Assembly (NCBI GenBank): GCA_000004985.1
Contig: GG739410.1
Direction: 5' to 3' (one strand)
DNA length: 1,476 nucleotides
DNA from: Naegleria gruberi
Taxonomy: Eukaryota
Shown piece by piece: positions 1-1,476 of this stretch; the stretch's first letter is position 1; the number at the start of each line of letters is the position of its first letter. The notes below the pieces were generated by a model. It was given only the letters and a program-made list of their open reading frames with translations, ran no database searches and had not been told where the DNA came from. Both the position numbers and the translations under genes were made by a program.

Positions 1-116
1 ATAATTGTCTTAATTTGTGAGAAAAATTCTGAAACAAAAATCTGTCAAAAATGGCATAATCATCTCAGGAAAGACACCTTCTGTTTAAAATTTTTCTCTC
101 AAATTAAGACAATTAT
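1..116. repeat. Imperfect inverted repeat. Left arm 1-20 is ATAATTGTCTTAATTTGTGA and right arm 97-116 is TCTCAAATTAAGACAATTAT. The arms are 19/20 complementary, and the core 1-17 / 100-116 is a perfect 17-mer. The spacer is 76 bp and A/T-rich. The left arm abuts the window edge, so the repeat may extend upstream.
   Basis: I reverse-complemented 1-20 by hand and it matches 97-116 with one mismatch at position 18/99. A third ATTGT core in direct orientation sits at 119-123. Confidence 0.7.
52..60 (+). promoter_or_regulatory. Possible extended -10 element TGgCATAAT inside the inverted-repeat spacer. No convincing -35 is found. This is speculative.
   Basis: TG at 52-53, one base, then CATAAT at 55-60, which matches TATAAT at 5 of 6 positions. 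The nearest TTGACA-like hexamers are poorly spaced (19-22 bp). An alternative -10-like TGTAAT lies at 122-127. Confidence 0.2.
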
Positions 117-152: not shown

Positions 153-728
153 ATGCAATTGCGTCAGTATGATAATTTAGAAGATAAAGGAAATATTAAA
201 TTTACGAGTACACTATCCTTTCCTTTCACTGAACGAGCTGTCATGCGGTGTGTTGTTCTTGGCAGACACACGCAACCAACTGCAATAGCAAGAAAGAAGT
301 TTTGGTCAAATATTCCCTTATATAACTGCACAAATCTGTCAGTTTATGATTATATAAAATTAATTGCAGACCATCATGGTATTCCCCTTATTAGAGGCTA
401 CAAAGTTTATGTGTGGAACAAAACCAAGTACTTTGATTTCAATATAGAAAAAGTCAAGGAATCATACACTGATGAAAAGTTGTTTAATGAGTTGCAAACT
501 TTGAAATTCCAGAATATAATGAATGGGAACTATGTTCAAGAGTTGGTTCATAGTGATAAATCTGTTCTTCTTACAGATTTTTTCCAAATGGGAACCTTTA
601 GTGCTAAAAATCTTGACTGCTTCCTTATTGTTCACAAGATACAACAAGATGCAAAGAAAGAGTTATGGGATTTGTTTGTTGATATTGTAAGTTCAATTTC
701 TTTCTCTGATATTTATTCATCCATTTAG
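153..728 (+). CDS. Hypothetical protein of 191 aa with no family recognised. It is soluble-looking, with no signal peptide, no TM segment and no nucleotide-binding motif that I can see. It may be the N-terminal domain of a larger protease-containing protein (see findings).
   Basis: ORF from the supplied track. ATG 153 is the first start after the in-frame TAA at 138-140. It is preceded by a 12-nt pure-A tract rather than a Shine-Dalgarno sequence. Third codon positions are strongly A/T-biased, consistent with the rest of the window. The stop is TAG at 726-728. Confidence 0.6.
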   Translation: MQLRQYDNLEDKGNIKFTSTLSFPFTERAVMRCVVLGRHTQPTAIARKKFWSNIPLYNCTNLSVYDYIKLIADHHGIPLIRGYKVYVWNKTKYFDFNIEKVKESYTDEKLFNELQTLKFQNIMNGNYVQELVHSDKSVLLTDFFQMGTFSAKNLDCFLIVHKIQQDAKKELWDLFVDIVSSISFSDIYSSI

Positions 729-905
729 GAGAACAATGAAAACCAAACTAATCAACCTTCTTTAGCTGGAGGTAGAGGGACGAATCAACACGATAACAAA
801 GATAAAAAGAAAGCTAAAAATAGTCAAAACCTTATCTCACCTTATTCCGGGAGAAAAGAAATCAAAGACTTGTGGGAAAAATTGCAATCTGGAGGTGCTG
901 GAGAA
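729..905 (+). other. In-frame open segment immediately after the ORF1 stop. It is 59 codons long and contains no stop and no ATG or GTG. It encodes a polar low-complexity peptide, ENNENQTNQPSLAGGRGTNQHDNKDKRKAKNSQNLISPYSGRKEIKDLWEKLQSGGAGE. This is a candidate inter-domain linker of a gene interrupted by the TAG.
   Basis: Hand translation of frame 0 (same frame as 153-728). The first conceivable starts are TTG 870 and TTG 882. Codon third positions are A/T-rich like the flanking coding sequence. Confidence 0.4.
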
Positions 906-1476
906 GTGTATGACTTGAATAATGTAGTGTTACCTGATACACCTAAACCCCAATTTAACACTGCAAAGTTAGGATCAGAGAAACTACGTAGATTAATGGC
1001 TAGTACTGTTACTCGTTGTAACAAGGTCAATGGTACAGTTTTCCAAATTCGTGACACAATAATTAATGAAATTGGACACGGATTTTTCATATCTCCCTCA
1101 CACTTAGTTACATGTATCCATAACCTTCGTTTAGATAAACCAGATGAAATTGTGAAAGATATGACGGTTGAAAATGAGCTGTATATTTCATTCACGAACC
1201 AAACTGTGAAGACCAACTATAAGTTGCTTTATCCTAAAAAACTGAATGAAACAGTTTACAATGATTTCGACAATCTAGACGTTGCAATCTTAGAACTTGA
1301 TTTGACTGCCAAAGTGGAAAACAAAATTGACATATTTGACACTCCCACAGTTAATTTTATGAAATTTATTAATGATGCTGGAATTGTTATTAATCCAAAC
1401 CATCCATCTCTTCAACCGTCAGTTATTTATTATTATGATAATAATGATCCCTCTACACTTAATGAATCCATTCATG
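906..1476 (+). CDS. Trypsin-like (chymotrypsin-fold, S1 / Trypsin_2-type) serine peptidase, 5' partial. It runs off the window end. The start is uncertain. GTG 906 is chosen because GGAGG at 891-895 sits 10 nt upstream. Alternatives are TTG 870, ATG 996, or no own start at all if the frame is continuous with 153-728.
   Basis: Frame 0 is open from 729 to 1476. The motif NGTVFQIRDTIINEIGHGFFISPSHLVTCIHNL (1029-1127) resembles the GxGF...LVT(A/C)xH catalytic-His region of S1 peptidases. The motif NDFDNLDVAILELD (1260-1301) resembles the D[IV]A[LIV]L catalytic-Asp motif. The His-to-Asp spacing is 53 residues. No signal peptide is present at any candidate N-terminus. Confidence 0.55.
   Translation, partial: MYDLNNVVLPDTPKPQFNTAKLGSEKLRRLMASTVTRCNKVNGTVFQIRDTIINEIGHGFFISPSHLVTCIHNLRLDKPDEIVKDMTVENELYISFTNQTVKTNYKLLYPKKLNETVYNDFDNLDVAILELDLTAKVENKIDIFDTPTVNFMKFINDAGIVINPNHPSLQPSVIYYYDNNDPSTLNESIH

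What the first reader, a model, noticed from the sequence alone, without database searches (positions are those of the whole stretch)
996..1476. Cytoplasmic chymotrypsin-fold serine peptidase domain: His and Asp of the triad are present, Ser lies beyond the window
The sequence shows GHGFFISPSHLVTCIHN and DVAILELD, 53 residues apart. These match the conserved catalytic His and Asp neighbourhoods of the PA-clan S1 family, as in bacterial Trypsin_2 / HtrA / V8-like enzymes. ATG 996 lies 41 residues before the His, close to the N-terminus-to-His spacing of a minimal mature trypsin domain. The peptidase domain proper therefore begins near 996, and everything between 729 and 995 is extra. There is no signal peptide, so this is not a secreted Spl / V8 / exfoliative-toxin-type enzyme. 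Intracellular trypsin-like peptidases attached to non-catalytic N-terminal modules recur as effector or partner modules in prokaryotic conflict systems, for example the protease-containing AVAST/Avs types. That link here is inference only.
Basis: partly seen in the sequence, partly recalled or inferred. Interest (0 to 1): 0.5.

Follow-up and report, generated by a model that had tools for sequence, protein, structure and literature searches.

The report
Divergent trypsin-like half-domain in Naegleria gene
The flagged stretch is the second exon of an orphan gene of the amoeba Naegleria gruberi, a eukaryote and not a bacterium; it probably encodes the first (His/Asp) half of a very divergent trypsin-like protease domain, but the support is weak and the half with the catalytic serine lies beyond the contig end.

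Summary
The motifs, their spacing (His309 to Asp362, 53 residues) and ATG 996 are exactly as described. The window is a complete 1476-bp Naegleria gruberi contig encoding XP_002668038.1, a partial 'predicted protein' of 427 aa. The upstream ORF (153-686) and the flagged frame (729-1476) form one gene, joined by removing a 42-nt GTAAGT...TAG intron that holds the only in-frame stop. ATG 996 is therefore internal, and the prokaryotic defence framing does not apply.

The protein has no detectable relative among 1.84 billion cluster representatives. Pfam, NCBIfam and PDB sequence searches find nothing for the untrimmed queries. Pfam Trypsin_2 appears only for trimmed fragments, at noise level (E about 0.1, 14 bits against a cutoff of 27.6).

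The one real signal comes from two PADLOC protease-containing models. RT-Protease_XI scores E 1.8e-4 to 1.6e-3 and LmuA scores E 2e-3. Both align residues about 262-377 to the first half of their S1 domain, the same domain where V8 and DegP hit at 1e-14 to 1e-19. None of 25 shuffled or reversed controls hit a protease model. Narrow V8 and HtrA profiles, hhalign and AlphaFold gave no support.

Verdict: probably (about 0.6) a divergent S1-like domain. Catalytic competence cannot be tested here. Low interest.

The parts
1..116 (.). Upstream hairpin-forming inverted repeat (arms 1-33 and 84-116) at the very 5' end of the contig, ahead of the start codon. It is not part of the protein and its role is unknown.
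   Evidence: 33-nt arms, 91% complementary; minimum free energy -35.3 kcal/mol, z = -7.8; only sub-threshold miRNA-precursor Rfam hits.
153..686 (+). Exon 1: start codon ATG 153 and residues 1-178 of XP_002668038.1. This is an N-terminal module with no recognisable family.
   Evidence: P0001 = 178 aa + 249 aa. The frame has no stops against 8 and 20 in the other two frames. The only Pfam hit is a sub-threshold TopBP1_BRCT0 match.
687..728 (+). 42-nt spliceosomal-type intron, GTAAGT...TTTAG, 50% T. It contains the only in-frame stop (TAG 726-728), and its length is a multiple of three.
   Evidence: The NCBI model P0001 omits exactly these 42 nt. This is the only GTAAGT in the whole window, where 0.5 are expected by chance. 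Short introns are normal in Heterolobosea (PMC11589745).
729..1476 (+). Exon 2, residues 179-427, open at the 3' end because the contig ends.
   Evidence: 249 stop-free codons; 100% identical to P0001.
729..977 (+). Low-complexity linker rich in N, K and G (residues 179-261).
   Evidence: Composition. No family hit. The stretch is coding: GC1-3 = 0.46/0.36/0.28 and no stops.
978..1325 (+). Region (residues about 262-377) that aligns with the first half, the His/Asp barrel, of S1/Trypsin_2-type protease domains.
   Evidence: PADLOC RT-Protease_XI profile positions 325-410 of 506-510, E 1.8e-4 to 1.6e-3. LmuA profile 14-81, E 2.2e-3. Pfam Trypsin_2 profile 1-59/144, E 0.07-0.11. V8 and DegP map the same profile regions as a full protease domain.
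1074..1124 (+). GHGFFISPSHLVTCIHN, the candidate catalytic-His motif (His309 = CAT 1119-1121).
   Evidence: It aligns in register with 'igsGvvigkntvlTNkHv' of the V8/HtrA profiles.
1278..1301 (+). DVAILELD, the candidate catalytic-Asp motif (Asp362 = GAC 1278-1280).
   Evidence: It aligns in register with 'sDiAllql' / 'eDlAlvkl' of the HtrA and mixed profiles.

Best explanation
The window is a complete small contig of the eukaryote Naegleria gruberi. It carries the 5' part of one orphan protein-coding gene (XP_002668038.1, 427 aa, 3'-truncated). The gene consists of exon 1 (153-686), a 42-nt GT-AG intron (687-728) and exon 2 (729-1476). The protein has no signal peptide or membrane segment and is built of three parts: a 178-residue N-terminal module of unknown fold, a low-complexity linker of about 85 residues, and from about residue 262 the N-terminal beta-barrel of a very divergent Trypsin_2/S1-type (clan PA) serine peptidase domain. 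His309 and Asp362 are the candidate triad residues. By inference, the missing C-terminal barrel would supply the nucleophilic Ser about 75 residues after the Asp. The enzyme would then act as an intracellular endopeptidase, with the N-terminal module serving targeting or regulation. What is shown: the organism, the gene structure, the coding status, the presence of the motifs, and the weak in-register profile matches. What is inferred: the fold, the catalytic roles of His309 and Asp362, the existence of the Ser, and any activity.
For: Organism and gene model: (100% identity, 'predicted protein, partial [Naegleria gruberi]', longest contig 1476). Window GC is 32.4% against 33% for N. gruberi NEG-M (PMC8296547 Table 2).

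Intron: the only GTAAGT in the window sits 39 nt before the only in-frame stop. The interval is 42 nt, T-rich and ends in TAG. The frame upstream of ATG 996 is open for 89 codons (P about 7e-4).

S1 assignment: the first, untrimmed PADLOC scan gave RT-Protease_XI at E 1.6e-3 for P0001 and 3.8e-4 for 996-1476. Other fragments gave 1.8e-4 to 2.9e-4 (18.5 bits). The score drops by about 5 bits when the ~20 residues before GHG are removed, as expected if they form the first strand of the domain. Genuine S1 enzymes, V8/SspA and the E. coli DegP protease domain, hit profile positions 325-503 of the same models at 1e-12 to 1e-19. Our match to positions 325-410 is therefore the first half of a real protease domain. 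The 88-residue core also hits the protease part of PADLOC LmuA (profile 14-81, E 2.2e-3), again where V8 and DegP hit. Pfam Trypsin_2 is the top family for two trimmed fragments, starting at profile position 1 = GHG and running to position 59, about DVAIL. Of 25 shuffled or reversed controls, none hit a protease model. Home-made V8, HtrA and mixed HMMs and hhalign place His309 and Asp362 opposite the family His and Asp columns.
Against: No curated threshold is reached. Pfam Trypsin_2 scores 13.7-14.2 bits against a cutoff of 27.6, and only for trimmed fragments. The untrimmed queries gave nothing at E<=10. Pfam hits of this strength arise in 2 of 10 shuffles and also for the N-terminal module (BRCT0). 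NCBIfam, PHROGs and PDB sequence searches show no S1 hit. Narrow-family profiles are not significant: hhalign against the V8 family gives probability 0.6% with no match at the motifs; empirical P is 0.02-0.2 against 3000 shuffles, similar to the N-terminal negative control at 0.05-0.12; hhalign P is 0.17-0.26. The PADLOC E-values, corrected for all four libraries scanned (about 87,600 models), come to about 0.003-0.03 and are not independent of one another. The three supporting profiles model the same superfamily, so they all reward the same two motifs. AlphaFold2 gave no usable model (pLDDT 31 and 37). The protein has no homologues at all, so conservation of the His and Asp cannot be examined. 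The 53-residue His to Asp spacing is longer than in V8 (42), which requires an insertion.
Confidence: 0.6

Rival explanations
1. Chance resemblance. The C-terminal region is a lineage-specific domain of another fold, or is partly disordered, and happens to contain a G-x-G-F...T-x-x-H string and a D-V-A-I-L string. There is no protease.
For: No curated cutoff is reached. Pfam-level hits of the same strength occur for shuffles and for the N-terminal module. Narrow S1 profiles, hhalign, PDB searches and AlphaFold2 give no support. The protein is a complete orphan.
Against: PADLOC E-values of 1.8e-4 to 1.6e-3 come from two sibling models plus an unrelated-architecture model (LmuA). All are colinear and confined to the correct half of the protease domain. 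None of 25 composition-matched controls hit these models. Similarity extends beyond the two motifs: the ~20 residues before GHG contribute about 5 bits, and the strand-turn-strand segment before the Asp aligns.
Confidence: 0.27
2. Pseudo-protease or decayed gene. The domain descends from an S1 peptidase but is catalytically dead, or the locus is a degenerating or fragmentary copy on an unplaced mini-contig.
For: Divergence is extreme and there are no orthologues even in other Naegleria proteomes. The gene sits alone on a 1476-bp contig that starts with a foldback repeat. The region after the Asp (residues 378-427) is not covered by any profile match.
Against: The reading frame is intact over 427 codons apart from the intron. 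The candidate His and Asp are both retained in consensus-like contexts.
Confidence: 0.1
3. Two separate genes or a non-eukaryotic contaminant. Here 153-728 would be a complete 191-aa ORF ending at TAG, and a second protein would start at ATG 996. Alternatively the TAG would be read through or recoded, as in stop-codon-recoded phages.
For: Both ORFs are in the same frame and the 42-nt interval preserves the frame either way. No transcript evidence was available. The splice is an automated gene-model prediction.
Against: The 5' splice site is a canonical GTAAGT, there is a T-rich tract, and the 3' end is TAG exactly at the stop. The frame is open for 89 codons between the TAG and ATG 996, with coding-type GC periodicity. 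GC content matches N. gruberi. There is no similarity to anything in the phage, plasmid, viral or metagenome collections. Sigma-70-like promoter sites are fewer than in shuffles and no intrinsic terminator was found.
Confidence: 0.03

Closest known systems
Pfam Trypsin_2 (PF13365) / MEROPS family S1, clan PA serine endopeptidases
   Same: The motif G-x-G-F-x-I-x(4)-h-h-T-x-x-H is followed by a strand-turn-strand segment and D-h-A-h-h. The match is colinear with profile positions 1-59 of 144. The His-then-Asp order is correct, and a Ser would be expected just beyond the contig end.
   Different: The score is half the gathering threshold. His to Asp spacing is 53 against 42 in V8 and 30 in DegP (E. 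coli numbering, from my own knowledge). The Ser half is not available. There are 267 non-catalytic residues N-terminal to the domain. The protein is a eukaryotic orphan with no homologues.
Protease domain of PADLOC RT-Protease_XI models (PDLC02959/02960) and of protease-type Lamassu LmuA (PDLC03855)
   Same: These are the best-scoring profiles (18.5 and 15.4 bits). They match over the first half of their trypsin-like domain, which is the same region hit by V8 and DegP.
   Different: Only the protease half-domain matches. Nothing matches the reverse-transcriptase part (profile 1-324) or the remainder of LmuA. The host is a eukaryote and the gene has an intron. V8 and DegP also hit these models best, so the models behave as generic Trypsin_2 detectors rather than indicating a specific defence-system relationship.
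Staphylococcal V8/SspA-type Glu-specific endopeptidases (S1B) and HtrA/DegP (S1C)
   Same: The local motif register at His and Asp agrees.
   Different: There is no significant profile similarity. There is no signal peptide. A PDZ domain cannot be assessed.
Eukaryotic intracellular S1-type proteases with large N-terminal extensions (e.g. yeast Ssy5, peroxisomal Tysnd1/Deg15, Nma111), named from my own knowledge and not tested here
   Same: The architecture is alike in concept: a long non-catalytic N-terminal region, a C-terminal chymotrypsin-fold domain, and an intracellular location.
   Different: No sequence similarity was detected to any of them in the exhaustive search. This is an analogy only.

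Membership tests
Pfam Trypsin_2 (PF13365) / Trypsin (PF00089), MEROPS S1 | Match to the family HMM at or above the curated gathering score | tested here: not met
   No hit at E<=10 for 729-1476, 996-1476 or the full protein. Trimmed fragments give 13.7-14.2 bits, E 0.07-0.11, against a cutoff of 27.6. Shuffles give hits of equal strength to unrelated families in 2 of 10 cases. PF00089 was never hit.
Pfam Trypsin_2 (PF13365) / Trypsin (PF00089), MEROPS S1 | Catalytic His and Asp in family-typical sequence contexts, in the order His then Asp | tested here: inconclusive
   His309 (TCIHN) and Asp362 (DVAIL) are present and align opposite the family His and Asp columns. Those alignments are not statistically significant on their own, and no homologues exist to test conservation.
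Pfam Trypsin_2 (PF13365) / Trypsin (PF00089), MEROPS S1 | Nucleophilic Ser in a G-x-S-G-x motif about 75 residues after the Asp | not testable with these tools
   The contig ends 65 residues after Asp362. Attempts to extend it failed.
Pfam Trypsin_2 (PF13365) / Trypsin (PF00089), MEROPS S1 | Double beta-barrel chymotrypsin fold | tested here: inconclusive
   Single-sequence AlphaFold2 models have mean pLDDT 31.0 (full protein) and 36.6 (C-terminal 169 aa). No alignment can be built because there are no homologues, and half of the domain is missing.
V8/SspA-type endopeptidases (S1B) | Profile similarity to the family alignment | tested here: not met
   hhalign probability is 0.6% with no alignment at the motifs. 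The HMM score is about 0 bits. Empirical P is 0.06-0.2.
HtrA/DegP (S1C) | Profile similarity to the protease domain | tested here: not met
   The HMM built from 80 Enterobacterales/Vibrionales DegP/DegQ loci scores 1-2 bits. Empirical P is 0.03-0.07. hhalign P is 0.26.
Prokaryotic defence proteins with trypsin-like modules (Avs1, RT-protease, protease-type Lamassu) | Prokaryotic or phage genomic context and the partner domain (STAND NTPase, reverse transcriptase, or LmuA core) | tested here: not met
   The source is Naegleria gruberi and the gene has a spliceosomal-type intron. Only the protease half of the RT-Protease_XI and LmuA profiles matches. There is no Avs hit and no match to the RT region.

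The most novel reading that the evidence does not exclude
Naegleria gruberi carries a lineage-specific intracellular protein in which a novel 178-residue N-terminal module is tethered to a trypsin-like protease. The nearest detectable relatives of that protease are the protease modules of bacterial anti-phage systems (RT-protease, protease-type Lamassu). Under this reading it would be a horizontally acquired, intron-bearing immune-type effector in a free-living amoeba that is preyed on by giant viruses and intracellular bacteria.
Probability: 0.04. Interest if true: 0.55.

Novelty: new member of a known kind. Interest (0 to 1): 0.18.

Why it matters
It matters little beyond annotation. If the assignment holds, one of the many 'predicted protein' orphans of N. 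gruberi gains a tentative domain label: a divergent S1/Trypsin_2-like peptidase with a long N-terminal extension. The main practical lesson is methodological. The window is eukaryotic, and the 'stop codon' separating the two ORFs lies inside a 42-nt intron. Reading such windows with bacterial rules (first ATG, no signal peptide, defence-island context) misleads.

Tried and rejected
1. Homologue searches. The word-indexed search found only the protein itself and did not even recover it when queried with the 996-1476 fragment. Exhaustive phmmer against 1.84 billion representatives found only self. tblastn against phages and plasmids returned noise only. Scans of IMG/VR and JGI metagenomes by peptide and by exact DNA found nothing.

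2. Extending the contig to find the Ser. An exact-product look-up of P0001 and of the intron-retaining 191-aa ORF found nothing on record.

3. Structure. Two single-sequence AlphaFold2 runs gave pLDDT 31 and 37, so no fold search was attempted. I did not build an alignment forcing V8 or HtrA sequences onto the query, because that would be circular.

4. Narrow-family profiles. I used them to fetch families and build V8, HtrA and mixed HMMs and hhalign profiles. The alignments were in register but not significant.

5. Other libraries. NCBIfam, PHROGs and PDB sequence searches showed nothing relevant.

6. Bacterial reading of the locus. Promoter-like sites are fewer than in shuffles and there are no terminators. 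I rejected this reading in favour of the eukaryotic gene model.

7. Rfam on the upstream hairpin gave only sub-threshold plant miRNA-precursor hits.

8. Literature. I found no paper mentioning this protein or S1-type peptidases of Naegleria. The Naegleria genome paper itself is not held.

Full report
**What is in the window.** The window is AT-rich (32.4% GC). Frame 3 is open from ATG 153 to the last base except for one TAG at 726-728. The translation of 729-1476 is 100% identical to a single database protein, 'predicted protein, partial [Naegleria gruberi]' (427 aa; EFC35294.1 / XP_002668038.1). Its longest contig is 1476 bp, so the window is that entire contig. Naegleria gruberi is a heterolobosean eukaryote. 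Its genome is 33% GC with 1.7 exons per gene (PMC8296547 Table 2), which is consistent with the window.

**Gene structure.** P0001 equals residues encoded by 153-686 (178 aa) plus 729-1476 (249 aa). The model therefore removes 687-728.
- This interval starts with the only GTAAGT in the window.
- It is 42 nt long (a multiple of three) and 50% T.
- It ends in TTTAG, the TAG being the in-frame stop.
- Both exons are stop-free, while the other frames carry 8-40 stops, and both show coding GC periodicity.
- The 89 codons between the TAG and ATG 996 are also open (P about 7e-4 if non-coding).

ATG 996 is therefore an internal Met (M268), not a start codon. The 'extra' N-terminal part is 267 residues. 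It consists of a 178-residue module without a recognisable family (only a sub-threshold BRCT0 hit) and a linker rich in N, K and G. No hydrophobic segment exists anywhere in the protein. Short introns are usual in Heterolobosea (PMC11589745). No transcript evidence was available to me, so the splice remains a well-supported prediction.

**Is it an S1 peptidase? Negative results.**
- Pfam found nothing at E<=10 for 729-1476, 996-1476 or, later, the whole protein.
- NCBIfam and PHROGs found nothing relevant.
- PDB sequence searches showed no S1 chain.
- The exhaustive phmmer search found only the protein itself among 1.84 billion representatives.
- Phage, plasmid, viral and metagenome searches were empty.
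- AlphaFold2 without homologues gave pLDDT 31 and 37, which is unusable.
- I fetched the V8/SspA family (all members annotated PF13365/PF00089; my typed query was 100% identical to SspA) and 80 DegP/DegQ loci (the typed query was 100% identical to Escherichia albertii). From these I built profiles. hhalign against the V8 family gave probability 0.6% and no alignment at the motifs. HMM scores were 0-2.6 bits. Empirical P against 3000 shuffles was 0.02-0.2, no better than the N-terminal control at 0.05-0.12. hhalign P was 0.17-0.26.
- In all of these the best alignments nevertheless place His309 and Asp362 opposite the family His and Asp columns.

**Is it an S1 peptidase? Positive results.**
- The first, untrimmed PADLOC scan returned only the two sibling RT-Protease_XI models. 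E was 1.6e-3 for the whole protein and 3.8e-4 for 996-1476, covering residues about 262-376 against profile positions 325-410.
- To learn what that profile region is, I scanned genuine S1 enzymes. V8 (residues 78-268) and the DegP protease domain (87-250) hit positions 325-503 of the same models at 1e-12 to 1e-19. The region is thus a Trypsin_2-type domain, and our match is its first half.
- Re-scanning fragments gave 1.8e-4 to 2.9e-4 (18.5 bits). The score fell by about 5 bits when the ~20 residues before GHG were cut.
- The 88-residue core also hit the protease part of LmuA (profile 14-81, E 2.2e-3), where V8 and DegP also hit.
- Pfam Trypsin_2 appeared as the top family for two trimmed fragments (E 0.07-0.11, profile 1-59/144).

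**Controls.** Twenty-five shuffled or reversed versions produced no protease hit in PADLOC. The best null hits were E 0.018 and 0.031, to unrelated models. Ten shuffles in Pfam produced two unrelated hits at E about 0.1. The Pfam hit is therefore at noise strength, and only its identity and register are notable.

**Weighing.**
- Corrected for all four libraries (about 87,600 models), the PADLOC hits correspond to E of about 0.003-0.03.
- The supporting profiles all model one superfamily and reward the same features, so they are not independent.
- On the other side, the match is colinear over about 100 residues, is restricted to the correct half-domain, starts where a first strand should be, and is absent from the controls.
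- I put the probability that this is a true, very divergent S1/Trypsin_2-type domain at about 0.6-0.7. Adding the gene-structure claims gives about 0.6 for the whole statement.
- Whether it is catalytically competent cannot be said. In V8 the Ser lies 76 residues after the Asp, and here only 65 residues follow Asp362.

**Comparison with known systems.** It works like, at most, an intracellular Trypsin_2-type endopeptidase with a long N-terminal extension. Membership of Pfam Trypsin_2 / MEROPS S1 is not established, because the HMM threshold is not met and the Ser and the fold are untestable. It is not a V8-type or HtrA-type enzyme by profile. The link to prokaryotic conflict systems fails on context: the host is a eukaryote and the gene has an intron. 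The RT-Protease_XI and LmuA models appear to act as generic Trypsin_2 detectors, since V8 and DegP also hit them best. UG9-type RT-protease fusions are described in PMC9226505, but nothing here matches an RT.

**Verdict.** The finding is an ordinary, if highly divergent and truncated, orphan eukaryotic gene: a new member of a known kind at best, and of low interest.

Noticed in passing
window 1-116: The contig begins with a 33-nt inverted repeat (1-33 / 84-116, 91% complementary). It folds into a long hairpin (-35.3 kcal/mol, z = -7.8). The only Rfam hits are sub-threshold plant miRNA-precursor matches. It could be a foldback or MITE-like element, a promoter-region palindrome, or an assembly-end artefact that explains why the contig is so short.
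   Followed up: partly
window 687-728: The single stop codon separating the two 'ORFs' lies inside a 42-nt GTAAGT...TTTAG intron whose length preserves the frame. A bacterial-style ORF reading therefore splits one eukaryotic gene into two.
   Followed up: yes
window 480-629 (P0001 residues ~110-159): The N-terminal module gives a sub-threshold Pfam TopBP1_BRCT0 match (E 0.026-0.1, 13.5-15.3 bits against a cutoff of 27.5). This is probably noise, and it is of the same strength as the Pfam Trypsin_2 hit.
   Followed up: partly
window 842-1216, minus strand: A 124-aa antisense ORF lies wholly inside exon 2. I did not test it. I regard it as a by-product of the coding strand, because it is simply the antisense of the coding frame.
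   Followed up: no
whole protein P0001: The protein is a complete orphan: no other protein among 1.84 billion cluster representatives reaches E<=0.001. No paralogue in N. gruberi and no orthologue in other Naegleria species was among them.
   Followed up: yes
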